From the NCBI RefSeq assembly GCF_036507355.1, contig NZ_AP027877.1: a stretch of DNA of 64,000 nt. The stretch is one strand, 5' to 3'. Of this stretch, positions 57,801-63,800 are shown piece by piece. This stretch comes from Escherichia coli. GTDB taxonomy: Bacteria > Pseudomonadota > Gammaproteobacteria > Enterobacterales > Enterobacteriaceae. Each line of letters begins with the position of its first letter. Within the stretch, counting starts at the first letter, position 1. Made by a program: the position numbers.

Positions 57801-60800
57801 TGCGTCGCTTCGCTGGTCAGACGTAGATTTCAAATGGTCAAGCATGCGAATTAAAGACAAGATCGAAGGTGAACGTATCATCCCTCTCACTCCTTATGTT
57901 TCTGAATTGTTAAATGTACTAGCGCAATCCCCAAATTCTGACGTAAATAAGGAGGGTTGGGTTTTCAGAAGTAACAGTAAAAGTGGCAAAATTATTGAGC
58001 CGCGTTCAGCGCACAACAGAGCGTTAGTGCTGGCTGAGTTACCACATATCAGCCTTCACGGTTTACGTCGTAGTTTTGGTACTTTGGCCGAGTGGGTTGA
58101 AGTTCCCACTGGTATTGTTGCTCAAATTATGGGACACAAACCCAGCGCTCTTGCCGAAAAACACTATCGCCGTCGTCCGTTAGATCTGTTACGAAAATGG
58201 CACGAGAAAATTGAGACATGGATCTTAAATGAAGCAGGTATTACCATAAAAAACAACGTTGATATGCGTTGATTCCATTAAAAATCAACATATTACAAAA
58301 TATCATCAACTATTGAACAAGATAGATTTTCATGTATCGTAATACACAGTTTAGTCAATGATACAGCAACTACACAGGAGATAAGCCAATGGCAACCACA
58401 GCAACTGTATCCATAGAACCCACTCTGGCAGCTATCAGAGCTCGCTGGTGTATTAATTCAAGTAAAACAACTCAATCCTTTAACGATCCTGCGTCCATGG
58501 AAGAGGTTGTCGAGTATCTCAAAGGAACATACTCAGCTCTTCGCAAGTCTGTCGCATGCGCCAAACTGAAAATTTTACATCTTAAACAAAGAATGCAAAA
58601 TGCTACTAACTTTCTCGCGCGTCTGATGTCATGTAAAAATCAGGCATCCAGATCGCATCACAGTACGGCTAAATCAGCTAAAAGTGCCTTATCATCAGAT
58701 TCAGGTGATGGTAGTGACCCCGACCCCGAGCCCGAAACGTTTCCTTCTGCCTTCATTACTACCCCTACTAATTCAATAATGCTTAAAGCTTTCTTTGCCA
58801 ATATCTCAATCACTGAGGTGGCAAAATGAGCGCATTCAAACTCCCGGATACATCTCAATCACAGCTCATTTCAACAGCTGAGTTAGCTAAAATCATTAGC
58901 TACAAATCTCAAACCATTCGTAAATGGCTTTGTCAGGACAAATTGCCTGAGGGGCTACCTCGCCCAAAACAAATCAATGGCCGCCATTACTGGTTACGTA
59001 AAGATGTCCTTGATTTTATAGATACATTTTCTGTACGAGAAAGTCTGTAATAAATTACAGATTTAATTTTATTGATTTATAGCGATGTTGCCCCGAGAAA
59101 AATGGGGCAACACTGAGAAATTTCAGATAGTAGTTTTATATTGAGATAACAAAGAGGTTTCCTTAAAAATGTCTAATAGTGTTACTAATTTTGAGATGAG
59201 CAGCGTTCTACCAGGAAAAAAACCTTGTCAAGGCAAAAACAATGAGTCACAGGTAGTACAGACTACTCCCATAAAAAAACACTCAGTCACGTTCAAAAAT
59301 CAATCTTCATTAGGAGTAATTGATCATTATGCCAGACTAACAAATAAATCTCACTCTTCCGTAATAGCGGAAGTTGTGGATTTGGCTATCCCTATATTAG
59401 AAAAATGCAATCGTCATAACTGGTCAATAAATGAAATAAAAAATGATCTGTTAAAGTTCTCTATAAAAGAAAGCATCAATCGAAGCCGAGGTAAAACAGA
59501 AGTAACTCTGGAAGAGTACTGTTCGTTAATCTGGAAAACGAACATCATGAGTCCATTAAAAATCCCCATTGCAGATTACTTTCAACTGAACGCTAATGAT
59601 GAATTCATGGGGAAAGATGAAAAAACAGTTATACGTGAAAGGCTATCCTCGCTAAGGGAAAATTACGATATGGAAAAAGCCATTTACATTTACAATCAAA
59701 GACATTTTGATGTAAAGCATCAAAGTGTCTCAGGATATTCAAACATTATTCTTATTCATAGAACAACCTTTGAGGGTTATTACTTTGATGCCGGGCAGGC
59801 TCTACTCTTGTCAACATCCCAATTGATTATATTCGGGATAAATGAAGTTCTTAGAAGAAAGGGGATTGTTATGCCTTATCCGGTTGTTTGTTGGATTGAT
59901 ATTTACCATGTCAATGAAATGGTGGTTATGCTGCCAGTGCTCCGCAAAACAGATGTTTCCAACCGTGTTAATGTACCGGATGACATCATTATAAACCCAT
60001 ACTCACAAGAGAGCAGAACCTAAGAGGTAACAAAGAAGGACAAACAATTATGAGAGGTAAAATACTACTTTACCAGTTAAAGTATCGCTGGCAATCACTC
60101 TCTATTTTTGGTTGTTTTTTATGCAAAATGACATTATTCAGGTATCAAAAAATAATTTATGACACCGGAGTGCATCAGATGCGTTCATTTTTTTACACCA
60201 TATGCAGTAGCGAACAGCAAGAAAGCATTACAGATCATCACTCACTTGCTGAGATATGCCAAAAATTTAATATTCTATCTGAACATGTTGTGATCGAGCG
60301 GGTAGATATTAAAGAGGTTGTTTCAGAGCAACGTTTACTCAGACAATTGATTCATCATGAAATGAACCGGCAGGACACGCTTGTAATTCCAGATCTAAGC
60401 TGTCTTGGCAGAACTGTGGAGGATTTACAGAATATTTTATTTTTTTGCCTTCAAAAAGAAATATTTATCTACAGCTACCATCCAGCTTCAAGGATAGAGC
60501 CTTCTGCTGAAAGTTGCTTGTCTTTTTTGATTGCTCGTCAGGATACGATTGACATTCACAATCTGAAATCAACTAAAAGCCGATATCGACATGTTAAGAA
60601 GAAATTAGGACGAAAGGAGGGAAGCAAATACCGACGTGATATCACAATACTTAAGAAAGGTGGATTTACTCAGGCTGAGATTGCAAAGAAATTGAGTATC
60701 AGTTTATCGACTGTGAAGCGGCACTGGAATAACGGAATCATCGGTTAATTCCAGAAGCTAATTGCAGAGTAACTTTTTAACAGCCATCACAGGCTGGGGC

Positions 60801-63800
60801 TACCTTCGTCTCAAATTTAGATGTTGGATAGGTATTATATAATGATATAATGGCATTGTGTACTCTTACTACCTGTATTCACCAGTAAGAGTAGTAATCA
60901 GATCAGTATGTCCGTACTAAAATCTGATACCAGTATATACCGACAACAGTGACCAGGAATAGCCCTGCCTGTATGGCATCCCTGTACGGTCTGCTATAGA
61001 CCGTAGGACCAAATACAGGTATATATTATGAAAACATATCAAGGTACTCATGGAGTACATATCCTCGAATATCAGAGTAAGATTAATAAATTATTATGTT
61101 ATTTGACTAACCGGTATCCTAGGTTAATTGCTGTACGTGTCGATCTCCACTATCCCAAAATAGTTGATAACGGTGACAATATCTGTTGCTTCCCTAACCT
61201 GGAACCTGGGGTGATATCCCGGATGCGTGAATCCCTCAGAGCTAAGCTGGAGGCTGACCGTACCCGTAAGGTGCGTGAGGATAAACGCATTTACCGTTGC
61301 CCTTTATTTATTATATGGGCGAAAGAGTATTCTGAATCAGGTAAATGCCACTATCACATTTGCCTGTTGTTCAACAAAGACGCTTACTACCACCTCGGGG
61401 ATTACGATCAGGACGATAACCTTAGAGGGATGATCACAGGAGCCTGGTACAGCGCCCTGAGACTGGAGAGAGACGATCACCCTGGTCTGGTCCATTTTCC
61501 TGAAAACTGTAAGTATGTGCTAGACACCAATAGTACTGACTTCCAGCAGAACTACCAGGCGCTGTTAACCCGACTGGACTACCTGACCAAAGTTGAAAGC
61601 AAAGTGTTTGGTGAAGGAGACCGTAACTTCGGCTGTAGCCAAATCGAACTGTAAGTCGGTAATGGCCTTCTCAGTGAGAAGGCCTTAGTTGTATTGTTTC
61701 AAAAAATTACTAAAATGCAGTTTCGTTACGCAATTTTCTATAGATTACTGATAGTCATCAGCAAGTCCGCTACTAAATAACGTTTCTGCATTTTCAGCGG
61801 TAGCAACAGCATCCTGCACATCCTGCCGTTTCAAATCTAACACTCGTAATTTACCCTTTACTTCGGCGACAGATTCGATTCGCCTGTAAGCATCAGAATG
61901 ATGTTCGGCATATAGCGCAAGTCCTTCCAGTTTGGGCAAAGCATCAGCCAGATGTAGGCTATGTGGATCTACCAGGTCCACAACCATTTTGCCATCCTGT
62001 TCGGCAAAGAACAGGAAATCGGGACGAACAATCTTGTACTGTTCAGCTTCAACATAAGCGATTCCCAGTGACGACTGCCCTGTGTACTGTGGATTACGAT
62101 ACCAGAAAGCAAATCCTTCACGTTTGGTTTCGATCTCAAAAACCTTGGTTTCCCAATGGTTCAACAGAGCCGGATAGTTCCCGCTTTCGTCACACAACAA
62201 ATGGTGTTTCCAGACTGGAAGGTCAGCTTCCTTTTCACCTTCACGCACCCTGGTCATTTCAAACTTGTTCGCCGGCCTGACCAGATCCACATCCTGCGGT
62301 TCGGTACTCATTTCGACGATTTGACGATAGGCCTCTTTACGCTCATCTTTCAACGACTTGATTTGCGGTGTGTACTCGGCCAGCCACGCCTTCGCCAGTC
62401 TATCGGCCTCGCCATCGAAGTAATCCTGCCCCTCCATCACCAGCCCCATGCCAGCAACGGTAACACGAGCCTCCATGATTGCTTCCAGATATTCCTCTGC
62501 ATCCTCTTCTCGATCCGCAACCTTATCGGCCAGATATTCGACATAGGTACGTGAAACATCCGGGCTGAAAATTCGGTGATGCTGCCAACTTACTGATTTA
62601 GTGTATGATGGTGTTTTTAAGGTGCTTGCGTGGCTTCCATTTCCATCAGATGTCCTTCCTGCTCCGCTACTGAAGGCGTGGTGCGTAACGGCAAAAGCAC
62701 TGCCGGACATCAGCGCTATCTCTGCTCTCATTGCCGTAAAACATGGCAACTGCAGTTCACTTACACCGCCTCTCAGCCCGGTACGCACCAGAAAATCATT
62801 GATATGGCCATGAATGGCGTCGGATGTCGCGCCAGTGCACGCATTATGGGCGTTGGCCTCAACACGATTTTCCGCCATTTAAAAAACTCAGGCCGCAGTC
62901 GGTAACCTCGCGCATACAGCCGGGCAGTGATGTGATTGTCTGCGCTGAAATGGACGAACATTGGGGCTACGTCGGTGCTAAATCACGTCAGCGCTGGCTG
63001 TTTTACGCGTATGACAGGCTCCGGAAGACGGTTGTGGCGCACGTCTTCGGTGAACGCACTCTGGCCACACTGGAGCGTCTTCTGAGCCTGCTGTCGGCCT
63101 TTGAGGTCGTGGTATGGGACGGATGGCTGGCCGCTGTATGAATCACGCCTGAAGGGAAAGCTGCACGTTATCAGCAAGCGTTACACTCAGCGCATTGAGC
63201 GACATAATCTGAGACAACATCTGGCAAGGCTGGGACGGAAGTCACTGTCGTTCTCAAAATCGGTGGAGCTGCATGACAAGGTCATCGGGCATTATCTGAA
63301 CATAAAACACTATCAGTAAGTTAGAGTCATTACCGGGCCAAATCGATAAATCGCTCGATGAAGCCTCACTCAGCCTGCGCGCCGGTTCCCTGCGTACCAT
63401 TACGCACATCCTGCTGCCGCTGCTGCGCCCGGCGATCCTCTCGGCGCTGATTTACAGCTTTGTGCGCGCCATTACCACCGTCAGCGCCATTGTGTTCCTC
63501 GTCACGCCGGATACCCGCGTAGCGACGGCTTACATCCTCAACCGCGTGGAAGATGGCGAATACGGTGTAGCGATTGCCTACGGTTCCATTCTGATCGTGG
63601 TGATGCTGGCGATTATTTTCATCTTTGACTGGCTGATCGGTGAATCACGTACCTCCCGTTCAAAAGCCAAAAACCAGGCGTAATGGAGCGCACTATGACT
63701 CAGAAAAATTTCGTTGAACTGCGCAACGTCACTAAACGATTTGGCAGTAATACGGTAATCGACAATATCAACCTCACCATCCCGCAGGGGCAAATGGTGA

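What the first reader, a model, noticed from the sequence alone, without database searches (positions are those of the whole stretch)
60749..61654. YagK-type gene with a HUH endonuclease motif preceded by an iteron/hairpin region: candidate rolling-circle-type replication-initiation module
The 208-aa protein has H-Y-H followed by hydrophobic residues (CHYHICLLF) and a downstream YLTK, the arrangement of HUH nicking enzymes. The 280-bp region upstream contains a 10-bp-stem hairpin (60861-60893), a second hairpin (60985-61005), and the hexamer CCTGTA three times directly (60872, 60968, 60981) plus once inverted (61014). This is the architecture expected of a Rep protein with its cognate origin, which would make this remnant a satellite or integrative-plasmid-like element rather than a conventional prophage.
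Basis: partly seen in the sequence, partly recalled or inferred. Interest (0 to 1): 0.55.

Follow-up and report, generated by a model that had tools for sequence, protein, structure and literature searches.

The report
YagK: HUH nickase gene, promoter, leader
The gene is E. coli yagK, an already-annotated but untested DNA-nicking (HUH) enzyme typical of integrase/AlpA genomic islands. The "origin-like" DNA upstream of it is better explained as its promoter plus a folded mRNA leader than as a replication origin.

Summary
The window is the E. coli CP4-6 island (yagN-ykgV-yagM-yagL-yagK).

**Protein.** YagK (61028-61654) is the namesake of Pfam PF11726, which RefSeq calls "inovirus Gp2 family protein". 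The HUH reading holds:
- E100, H108, H110, Y185 and K188 are the only invariant residues across 127 diverse homologues.
- A pLDDT-96 model puts HUH on a strand and YxxK on a helix.

**Upstream region.** The "iteron/hairpin origin" reading does not hold.
- The region contains a published sigma-70 promoter (TTTAGA-16-TATAAT).
- That promoter's spacer is a ~20-nt box, TGTTGGAWAGGTAWTATATA, found upstream of YagK-family genes in 14 otherwise unalignable lineages.
- CCTGTA copies 2 and 4 are the two arms of a conserved stem that covers the Shine-Dalgarno-like AGG.
- CCTGTA copies 1 and 3 and hairpin 1 are not conserved.

**Context.** Homologues sit next to a YfjI/DUF3987 helicase or to YagM/YagL, always in integrase/AlpA islands. 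They are absent from genuine phages and from small plasmids.

**Verdict.** YagK is probably the island's rolling-circle initiator, and its nick site is unknown. The protein assignment is already implied by public annotation, so interest is moderate to low.

The parts
61028..61654 (+). yagK, 208 aa. Single-domain, single-tyrosine, Rep-class HUH endonuclease. It is the namesake of Pfam PF11726 (YagK_YfjJ_C), called 'inovirus Gp2 family protein' in RefSeq. Predicted catalytic residues: E100, H108, H110, Y185, K188.
60816..60843 (+). Sigma-70 promoter of yagK: TTTAGA (60816-21), 16-nt spacer, TATAAT (60838-43).
   Evidence: Consensus scan scores 10/12. The same TTTAGA-16-TATAAT is listed for the yagK-yagL spacer in K-12 by genomic SELEX with RpoD holoenzyme, with an H-NS flag (PMC3946193).
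60822..60841 (+). Family-conserved box TGTTGGATAGGTATTATATA (consensus TGTTGGAWAGGTAWTATATA). It occupies the promoter spacer and runs into the -10 element. The factor that binds it is unknown.
   Evidence: Unique in the window even with up to 3 mismatches. It lies upstream of YagK-family genes in loci found through the protein alone. Among pattern-scan hits, all 10 loci carrying a YagK-family gene (nine labelled Enterobacterales) and 37 of 96 metagenome hits have that gene 83-350 nt downstream in the same orientation. Column consensus over 15 lineages.
60846..60851 (+). Second TATAAT, created by an 8-bp duplication (TATAATGA) that is present in this window and absent from K-12, G5 and most other copies.
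   Evidence: Orthologue alignment. List of unique leader sequences.
60861..60893 (+). Hairpin 1: 10-bp stem, 13-nt loop containing CCTGTA copy 1. It would lie at about +11 to +43 of the transcript. It is specific to the E. coli/Mixta lineage.
   Evidence: At one stem pair all four combinations occur among near-identical copies: T:A, C:G, C.A and T.G. The hairpin is absent at 80% and 73% protein identity.
60897..60928 (+).
   Evidence: RNA fold. Conserved in the orthologues and in L147 at 73% identity.
60968..61019 (+). Composite stem-loop next to the ATG. The outer helix pairs CCTGTATGG (60968-76, CCTGTA copy 2) with CCAAATACAGG (61009-19, inverted copy 4), which includes the Shine-Dalgarno-like AGG at 61017-19. 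The inner helix is hairpin 2 (60985-92 / 60998-61005).
   Evidence: Predicted from the single sequence. Predicted independently by RNAalifold on 5 lineages, with 4 of 20 pairs showing compensatory changes. 92% of cells are paired, there are 2 compensatory pairs, and 3 G:C pairs become G:U in L089.
61664..61684 (+). Terminator-like hairpin (GGCCTTCTC AGT GAGAAGGCC, then a T-rich tail) between the convergent yagK and yagJ-like genes.
   Evidence: The yagJ-yagK pair is listed as a convergent excludon in PMC12288877.
58826..60748 (+). Upstream genes of the module: ykgV (AlpA-family HTH, 58826-59050), yagM (59169-60023) and yagL (resolvase-like N-terminus plus HTH, 60050-60748). The yagM-yagL-yagK order is conserved in Salmonella, Serratia, Providencia and Mixta, and partly (yagL-yagK) in Proteus.
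   Evidence: tblastn synteny.

Best explanation
YagK is a catalytically intact, Rep-class HUH endonuclease with one catalytic tyrosine. It has no helicase domain of its own.

Its family is a core gene of tyrosine-integrase/AlpA genomic islands of Gammaproteobacteria. It is not an inovirus gene.

The most likely mechanism has four steps:
1. Integrase and AlpA excise the island as a circle.
2. YagK nicks one strand at a specific site and becomes linked to the 5' end through Y185. The metal ion is held by E100, H108 and H110.
3. The free 3'-OH primes rolling-circle synthesis.
4. Unwinding is done by the neighbouring YfjI/DUF3987 helicase in most relatives, or by a host helicase in the CP4-6 type, where YagM/YagL replace YfjI.

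The 280 bp upstream of yagK is mainly its expression control region, not an iteron/hairpin origin. It contains:
- a sigma-70 promoter whose spacer is a family-conserved ~20-nt box, presumably the binding site of an island-encoded factor;
- a ~180-nt structured leader whose last stem-loop pairs CCTGTATGG with AAATACAGG and so buries the ribosome-binding AGG.

Shown here: the fold, the catalytic residues, the promoter (published), conservation of the box, conservation of the ATG-proximal stem, and the gene neighbourhood.

Inferred only: nicking activity, rolling-circle replication, the identity of the nick site, the factor that binds the box, and translational control by the leader.

In this particular window the element is decayed. 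intF is truncated and IS1 copies flank the module, so any such activity is probably vestigial here.
For: **Protein.**
- Pfam YagK_YfjJ_C hit at 1.5e-67, plus REP_ORF2-G2P at 7e-4. 110 of 127 homologues hit REP_ORF2-G2P at 1e-3 or better, and the minor cross-hits are all rolling-circle Rep families: RepSA, Rep_1, Phage_GPA, Rep_OBD.
- The family has 633 clusters at 50% identity, nearly all 200-240 aa.
- The only invariant columns are E100, H108, H110, Y185 and K188.
- The model has pLDDT 95.9, with HUH on strand 107-116, E100 on the neighbouring strand 94-101, and Y185 on helix 172-187.
- The top Foldseek hits are the same families.

**Context.**
- The order int-yagN-ykgV(alpA)-yagM-yagL-yagK followed by variable cargo is seen in E. 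coli and Salmonella. Synteny holds down to about 30% identity.
- In L089 (80% identical YagK), L030, L085, L057 and L013 the gene immediately upstream is YfjI. In L046 YfjI lies downstream.
- YfjI is DUF3987 (6.5e-97). DUF3987 was shown biochemically to be a 5'-3' helicase of a mobile-element replication module (PMC11724360).
- A Pseudomonas island family with intY, alpA and an 'inovirus Gp2-like' core gene excises to a circle or a concatemer and is transduced as a satellite (PMC12595487).

**Upstream region.**
- Published promoter TTTAGA-16-TATAAT, recovered by the scan.
- Box conservation.
- 8 of 14 leader lineages fold with z of -2.85 or lower.
- The ATG-proximal stem is conserved with compensatory and G:U changes.
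Against: - No biochemical or genetic test of any YagK/YfjJ protein was found. Both remain 'uncharacterized' in the 2024 y-ome review.
- No candidate nick site is identified.
- The family is never the sole replication gene of a small plasmid. There were 67 plasmid records, and all those examined were large plasmids, F' plasmids or mislabelled chromosomal contigs.
- The CP4-6 version lacks the YfjI helicase.
- The stem covariation rests on only 5 lineages, and 32 of 500 shuffles reach the observed score.
- 6 of 14 leaders are not unusually structured.
- The pattern scans used the box itself as the query, so only the protein-derived loci are unbiased evidence for it.
Confidence: 0.5

Rival explanations
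1. The hairpins (60861-93, 60985-61005) and the CCTGTA repeats are the double-strand origin. YagK binds the repeats as iterons and nicks in a hairpin loop.
For: - The features exist, and a Rep gene next to its origin is the normal layout of rolling-circle replicons.
- Hairpin 1 shows one T:A to C:G double change between two haplotypes.
- Structured leaders recur in 8 of 14 lineages, and an ssDNA hairpin cannot be told from an RNA hairpin by sequence alone.
Against: - The loop of hairpin 1 and CCTGTA copies 1 and 3 already vary within 92-94% identical orthologues.
- Both mismatch intermediates, C.A and T.G, persist at the 'compensated' pair.
- Hairpin 1 and copies 1 and 3 are absent at 80% and 73% protein identity.
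- Copies 2 and 4 are the two arms of one helix, so they are not independent binding sites.
- Three G:C to G:U changes in L089 preserve pairing in RNA but not in DNA.
- The hexamer count is not beyond chance.
- The region lies downstream of a mapped promoter.
Confidence: 0.1
2. The conserved box TGTTGGAWAGGTAWTATATA (60822-60841) is itself YagK's target. It would be either the nick site or origin embedded in YagK's own promoter, as in geminiviruses, or an autoregulatory operator.
For: - It is the only cis element conserved across lineages with 38-100% identical YagK proteins, whichever gene lies upstream: YagL, YfjI or another.
- It is AT-rich and partly palindromic in several lineages, for example GGTAATATATATTACC in L032.
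- It is always in the same orientation relative to the gene.
Against: - The -10 element and the 16-nt spacing already explain part of the conservation.
- More distant family members lack the box: L014, L015 and L016 at 30-39% identity.
- AlpA-family proteins, YagL, or other island factors are equally good candidate binders.
- No data address this directly.
Confidence: 0.2
3. YagK is a mobilisation nickase, relaxase-like. It would cut an oriT so that a helper conjugative element can transfer the excised island.
For: - It has HUH chemistry and sits in mobile islands.
- 42 of 67 plasmid records carrying the family are conjugative plasmids.
Against: - The motif order is HUH then Tyr, as in Reps. 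In HUH relaxases the Tyr comes before the HUH.
- The best structural matches are viral and plasmid Reps and a Helitron, not relaxases.
- No coupling protein or mobilisation accessory genes were seen in the neighbourhoods examined.
- The plasmid association may simply reflect islands inserted into large plasmids.
Confidence: 0.1
4. YagK is an HUH transposase of an IS200/IS605-, IS91- or Helitron-like element.
For: - A few database entries label family members 'transposase'.
Against: - The median is one copy per genome and the highest is 3, always in the same syntenic module.
- The 20-nt box occurs only once in the 64-kb window. The hairpins were not searched for elsewhere.
- Element boundaries are set by a tyrosine integrase.
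Confidence: 0.03

Closest known systems
Pfam PF11726 YagK_YfjJ_C (formerly Inovirus_Gp2 / DUF3296); RefSeq 'inovirus Gp2 family protein'
   Same: The match is full length (E 1.5e-67), and this gene is the family's namesake. All AFDB50 neighbours carry this name.
   Different: Nothing differs. It is a member. The family has no experimentally defined function. Its name is misleading, because no genuine phage among 50,697 records encodes a relative.
Rep-class HUH endonuclease domains of parvovirus NS1 / AAV Rep, SIRV1 ORF119, CRESS-DNA virus Reps and pMV158 RepB
   Same: - The motif order is the same: an acidic ligand, then HUH on adjacent strands, then YxxK on a following helix.
- There is one catalytic Tyr.
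   Different: - There is no detectable sequence similarity to any solved structure.
- YagK has no fused SF3 helicase or oligomerisation domain. When a helicase is present it is a separate DUF3987 protein.
- YagK has an extra N-terminal hairpin-helix (residues 1-29) and a C-terminal FGCS strand.
Pfam PF23343 REP_ORF2-G2P (replication-associated protein ORF2/G2P; the source of the RefSeq label 'inovirus Gp2')
   Same: A weak local match around the E...HUH strands (residues 85-121, E 7e-4). It recurs in 110 of 127 homologues, with a best E-value of 1.8e-8.
   Different: Only about 35 residues match. There is no hit to Phage_CRI, the family I recall as f1 gpII (from memory, not checked here). No relative is found in phage genomes.
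AlpA/integrase genomic islands transduced by a jumbo phage (I23/I44/I55; PMC12595487), and the CP4-57 alpA-yfjI-yfjJ module
   Same: The core set is the same: tyrosine integrase, AlpA and an 'inovirus Gp2-like' protein, with variable defence or other cargo.
   Different: - The CP4-6 version has YagM/YagL in place of YfjI.
- The copy in this window has a truncated integrase and IS1 insertions.
- The role of the Gp2-like gene was not tested in that paper.

Membership tests
HUH endonuclease superfamily (Rep class) | HUH motif: two His separated by a bulky hydrophobic residue, located on a beta strand. | tested here: met
   H108-Y-H110. Both His are invariant in 127 homologues. They lie on strand 107-116 of a pLDDT-96 model.
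HUH endonuclease superfamily (Rep class) | Catalytic Tyr in a YxxK motif on a helix C-terminal to the HUH. | tested here: met
   Y185 and K188 are invariant, and K192 is at least 90% conserved. Helix 172-187.
HUH endonuclease superfamily (Rep class) | A third metal ligand (Glu/Gln/Asp) on the strand next to the HUH, positioned close to it in space. | tested here: inconclusive
   E100 is invariant and lies on strand 94-101, seven residues before H108. This spacing resembles the one I recall for AAV Rep (from memory, not checked here).
HUH endonuclease superfamily (Rep class) | The HUH fold: an antiparallel sheet flanked by helices, with structural similarity to solved HUH domains. | tested here: met
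HUH endonuclease superfamily (Rep class) | Metal-dependent ssDNA cleavage that forms a covalent 5'-phosphotyrosine link. | not testable with these tools
   This needs biochemistry. No report was found.
Rolling-circle double-strand origin next to the rep gene | A nick-site hairpin whose loop or nick sequence is conserved among related Reps. | tested here: not met
   The hairpin 1 loop changes within 92-94% identical orthologues. Hairpin 1 is absent at 80% and 73% protein identity. Hairpin 2 is conserved only as part of a larger stem that covers the Shine-Dalgarno-like AGG.
Rolling-circle double-strand origin next to the rep gene | Iterons: direct repeats conserved in sequence, number and spacing, serving as Rep binding sites. 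| tested here: not met
   CCTGTA copies 1 and 3 are not conserved. Copies 2 and 4 pair with each other. The count is not beyond chance.
Inovirus gpII / G2P replication proteins | A significant, full-domain match to the phage families (Phage_CRI, REP_ORF2-G2P) and presence in filamentous phage genomes. | tested here: not met
   Only a 35-residue weak match to REP_ORF2-G2P, and no Phage_CRI hit. The one tblastn hit among 50,697 phage records is an unverified 4.5-kb contig that I read as host DNA.
HUH relaxases (MOB families) | Catalytic Tyr N-terminal to the His motif, and association with oriT, a coupling protein or mobilisation genes. | tested here: not met
   The Tyr is 75 residues C-terminal to the HUH. 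No such neighbours were seen in the loci examined.
Y1 HUH transposases (IS200/IS605) | Multicopy units bounded by subterminal hairpins. | tested here: not met
   The median is one copy per E. coli genome, in a syntenic module. The conserved box is unique in the window.
P4-like satellites / PICI-type phage satellites | Integrase plus an AlpA-type regulator, a replication module, and helper-exploitation genes (capsid redirection, packaging). | tested here: inconclusive
   An integrase remnant and an AlpA-family gene are present. A putative replication gene (YagK) is present. No capsid or packaging gene was recognised in 57.6-64 kb. The rest of the island was not examined.

The most novel reading that the evidence does not exclude
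YagK-family HUH nickases, together with YfjI/DUF3987 helicases, would form an unrecognised rolling-circle replicon. It would be shared by the very widespread integrase/AlpA genomic islands, including the CP4-type 'cryptic prophages' and satellites of jumbo phages. The conserved 20-nt box inside the nickase's own promoter would serve as the nick site or origin, and the replicon would produce the concatemers that get packaged or transferred.
Probability: 0.2. Interest if true: 0.6.

Novelty: already known. Interest (0 to 1): 0.3.

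Why it matters
Integrase/AlpA islands include the CP4-type "cryptic prophages", many pathogenicity islands and many defence islands. They are everywhere in Enterobacteria and other Gammaproteobacteria. How they persist or amplify after excision is largely unknown.

If the YagK family is their replication initiator, three things follow:
- A large class of islands gains a defined replicon.
- There is a simple explanation for the concatemer or circle forms reported for related islands.
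- There is a genetic handle for blocking or tracking island transfer: the nickase, its helicase partner and the conserved box.

As it stands, the protein assignment only restates public annotation, and the proposed origin is not supported. The immediate value is a corrected reading of the region and three concrete, testable elements.

Tried and rejected
- **Sequence searches against solved structures.** The single protein and the 127-sequence profile both gave no hits, even at E of 10 or less.
- **NCBIfam and PADLOC.** No model matches YagK. PHROGs gives only an unnamed family.
- **Rfam on 60500-61800.** Nothing at E of 1 or less, so the leader is not a described RNA family.
- **The search for related loci with alignments A1 and A3.** I used a DNA pattern built from the box instead.
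- **Two records that looked like small replicons carrying the family.** These were an 11.7-kb Salmonella 'plasmid' and a 4.5-kb 'phage'. Both are linear. The plasmid record carries ordinary chromosomal genes, and the phage record is an unannotated UNVERIFIED_ORG contig, so I do not count either as an autonomous replicon.
- **LexA-box reading of the CTGT/ACAG repeats.** Considered by eye and dropped, because the spacing is wrong.
- **Pseudomonas AlpA antiterminator analogy.** That protein's binding element lies between -35 and -10. I kept this only as a positional analogy, because that AlpA is a much larger, Q-like protein and not the 74-aa AlpA family found here.
- **AFDB50 fold search.** It returned only members of the same family and no characterised relative.

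Full report
**1. What the window is.**
- The region 58.3-61.7 kb matches the E. coli CP4-6 island at about 99% identity.
- RefSeq annotates the genes as yagN, ykgV (HTH regulator), yagM, yagL and yagK ('inovirus Gp2 family protein').
- The target ORF is 61028-61654 (+), 208 aa.
- The integrase intF is represented only by its C-terminal 195 residues next to IS1-like DNA. Another IS1 lies beyond the convergent yagJ-like ORF.

**2. Checking the observation.**
This covers HYH at aa 108-110, YLTK at aa 185-188, the 10-bp hairpin (60861-70 / 60884-93), the 8-bp hairpin (60985-92 / 60998-61005), CCTGTA at 60872, 60968 and 60981, and TACAGG at 61014.
- The hexamer count is not remarkable. 28% of simulated spacers contain some hexamer at 4 or more copies.
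- Each hairpin is modestly better than shuffles when folded as ssDNA (z about -3).
- The region from the predicted transcription start to the ATG is significantly structured as a whole (z -3.5, 0 of 200 shuffles).

**3. The protein.**
- YagK matches Pfam YagK_YfjJ_C over its full length (1.5e-67). It also matches REP_ORF2-G2P weakly, around the HUH strands.
- An exhaustive search found 633 clusters at 50% identity. Nearly all are single-domain proteins of 200-240 aa.
- In an alignment of 127 of them (30-56% identical to YagK), the only invariant columns are E100, H108, H110, Y185 and K188. That is the metal-ligand triad, the nucleophile and the lysine of a Rep-class HUH enzyme.
- 110 of 127 members cross-hit REP_ORF2-G2P. 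The sporadic weaker hits include the rolling-circle Rep families RepSA, Rep_1, Phage_GPA and Rep_OBD, among scattered unrelated single hits.
- AlphaFold gives a confident model (pLDDT 95.9, pTM 0.90). E100 and HUH lie on adjacent strands, and Y185 lies at the end of a helix.
- Foldseek ranks the same families first but without strong statistics.
- Sequence searches against the PDB find nothing.
- The HUH reading is therefore well supported. The order HUH then Tyr places YagK with Reps and transposases rather than relaxases.
- This is not a discovery, because the public annotation already implies it. However, no experiment on YagK or YfjJ was found, and both remain 'uncharacterized' in the 2024 y-ome survey.
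- The 'inovirus' label is misleading. Among 50,697 phage records the only hit is an unverified 4.5-kb contig that I read as host DNA.

**4. The upstream region within close relatives.**
- In orthologues 92-94% identical, the hairpin 1 stem keeps pairing through one T:A to C:G double change.
- However, all four combinations at that pair (T:A, C:G, C.A, T.G) occur among near-identical copies. This looks like recombination between two haplotypes rather than strong selection.
- CCTGTA copy 1 (in the loop) and copy 3 become CCTATA. Hairpin 2 loses two of its eight pairs in one clade.

**5. The upstream region across the family.**
- I first fetched loci through the protein only: Salmonella at 59% identity, and three metagenomic or genomic relatives at 57, 42 and 38%. 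Their spacers cannot be aligned with the window except for one box, TGTTGGATAGGTATTATATA (window 60822-60841).
- I then scanned 100,044 genomes with GTTGGAWWGGTAWTATATA, which gave 31 hits. The ten loci that carry a YagK-family gene (40-97% identical) have it 83-306 nt downstream in the same orientation. Nine of these are labelled Enterobacterales and one Chryseobacterium. The 21 hits in AT-rich Firmicutes, Bacteroidetes and other MAG contigs have no such gene, which is roughly the chance expectation.
- A metagenome scan gave 37 of 96 hits with the gene downstream.
- Fourteen leader lineages result. The consensus is TtT...TGTTGGAtAGGTAaTATATA.
- More distant members (30-39% identical) lack the box.

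**6. What the box is.**
- Shimada et al. (PMC3946193) mapped a constitutive RpoD promoter in the K-12 yagK-yagL spacer by genomic SELEX and give it as TTTAGA-16-TATAAT, with an H-NS flag. The consensus scan finds exactly this at 60816-60843.
- The box is therefore the 16-nt spacer plus the start of the -10 element.
- A conserved spacer, especially GTTGGA at about -27 to -22, points to a bound factor. Candidates are the AlpA-family YkgV, YagL, or YagK itself. Nothing here decides between them.
- This window carries an 8-bp duplication (TATAATGA) that creates a second TATAAT at 60846-51.

**7. What the hairpins and CCTGTA copies are.**
- With transcription starting near 60850, all of them lie in a ~180-nt leader.
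- Folding predicts hairpin 1, a third hairpin (60897-60928), and a composite terminal stem-loop.
- In that stem-loop CCTGTATGG (60968-76, copy 2) pairs with CCAAATACAGG (61009-19, inverted copy 4), enclosing hairpin 2. The 3' arm contains the Shine-Dalgarno-like AGG (61017-19).
- RNAalifold on five lineages (window type, two E. coli variants, L089 at 80% and L147 at 73% protein identity) predicts the same architecture independently. 4 of 20 pairs change on both sides.
- On four of the lineages, counted against my own structure, 92% of cells are paired. There are two compensatory pairs in hairpin 2, and three G:C to G:U changes in the outer helix of L089. The G:U changes preserve pairing in RNA but not in DNA.
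- The sample is small: 32 of 500 shuffles reach the observed score. I treat this as moderate support.
- Eight of fourteen leader lineages fold with z of -2.85 or lower, although their sequences are unrelated. Several place an inverted repeat just before the ATG.
- The simplest reading is a structured 5' leader that limits YagK translation. The 'iterons' are arms of a helix.

**8. Genomic context.**
- The order int-yagN-ykgV(alpA)-yagM-yagL-yagK is followed by different cargo in different strains: TrlF ATPase, CdiA and IS elements.
- yagM-yagL-yagK synteny persists in Salmonella, Serratia, Providencia and Mixta at 28-37% identity for the partner proteins.
- In other lineages the gene directly upstream of the box is YfjI. 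These include the 80%-identical orthologue L089.
- YfjI is DUF3987 (6.5e-97). A DUF3987 protein was shown to be a 5'-3' helicase acting in a mobile-element replication module (PMC11724360).
- An HUH nickase next to a helicase is the split equivalent of the fused HUH-helicase Reps of parvoviruses and CRESS viruses.
- AlpA genes are nearby in almost every locus.
- On plasmids the family occurs only on large plasmids, F' plasmids or mislabelled contigs. So it is not a stand-alone plasmid Rep.
- Fourteen IMG/VR predicted-prophage contigs carry it, which is uninformative.
- A Pseudomonas island family defined by intY and alpA has an 'inovirus Gp2-like' protein among its likely core genes. It excises to a circle or concatemer and is transduced as a satellite by a jumbo phage. 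The Gp2-like gene was not tested there (PMC12595487).

**9. Conclusion.**
- YagK is a bona fide, probably active, Rep-class HUH endonuclease family member. My confidence in this is about 0.9.
- Its most likely role is to initiate rolling-circle replication of the excised island. My confidence is about 0.45, and this is inferred from fold, conservation of catalytic residues and the helicase partnership.
The region is a promoter with a conserved box plus a structured leader (confidence about 0.7).
- If YagK has a cis target nearby, the box is a better candidate than the hairpins.
- The copy in this window sits in a decayed island.
- Novelty is low for the protein, because it is a named and annotated family. 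The conserved box, the leader stem and the YfjI pairing were not mentioned in the papers I searched. I made no targeted literature search for them, and they are worth a bench test.

Noticed in passing
window 60822-60841; also L006, L008, L009, L012, L020, L027, L030, L032, L040, L046, L057, L089, L127: A ~20-nt box, TGTTGGAWAGGTAWTATATA, fills the spacer of the yagK promoter. It is the only part of the intergenic region conserved across 14 lineages of YagK-family genes. The factor that binds it is unknown.
   Followed up: yes
window 60838-60853: An 8-bp tandem duplication (TATAATGA TATAATGG) is present relative to K-12, G5 and most other copies. It creates a second perfect -10 hexamer, 16 nt downstream of TTGGAT.
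   Followed up: partly
L089 2996-4393, L030 4507-5916, L085 4184-5590, L013 3451-4872, L046 6277-7695 (coordinates as oriented): In many relatives the YagK-family gene is adjacent to a YfjI/DUF3987 protein. DUF3987 is a helicase family that has been shown to be active in another mobile element. CP4-6 has YagM/YagL in that position instead. This suggests a split HUH-plus-helicase replication module.
   Followed up: partly
L006 10994-11560; L014 7127-7693; L046 5063-5665: A second, divergent paralogue (26-28% identical to YagK in L006 and L046; annotated 'inovirus-type Gp2 protein' in L006 and L014) lies downstream of the YagK homologue in Salmonella, a Klebsiella plasmid and Citrobacter. In L006 only 30 nt separate the two genes.
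   Followed up: no
window 57293-58272: intF is 5'-truncated, with only residues 271-465 remaining. It abuts IS1-like DNA that is 92% identical to the IS1 at about 62.6-63.3 kb. This copy of the island therefore cannot excise using its own integrase.
   Followed up: partly
window 60050-60748 (yagL): YagL has a resolvase/invertase-like N-terminal region and a C-terminal HTH. RefSeq names it inconsistently, as 'ECF-type sigma factor' or 'recombinase family protein'. In two of the diverged orthologous islands examined it is frameshifted while yagK stays intact.
   Followed up: no
window 60790-60799; L020, L127, L030, L089 at about 30-36 nt upstream of the box: A second G-rich element resembling the left half of the box lies about three helical turns upstream of it (GGCTGGGG in the window, TGTTGGCTTGAT in L020 and L127). 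It may be a second binding site for the same factor.
   Followed up: no
window 61664-61684 and 61745-62878: A terminator-like hairpin that could serve both strands lies between yagK and a convergent 377-aa yagJ-like ORF. That ORF runs up to an IS1. The yagJ-yagK pair is listed as a convergent excludon in K-12 RNA-seq.
   Followed up: no
window 60834-60862 (- strand): A promoter-like site on the opposite strand (TACACA-17-TATAAT) overlaps the yagK promoter and the start of the leader. It could drive antisense or divergent transcription toward yagL.
   Followed up: no
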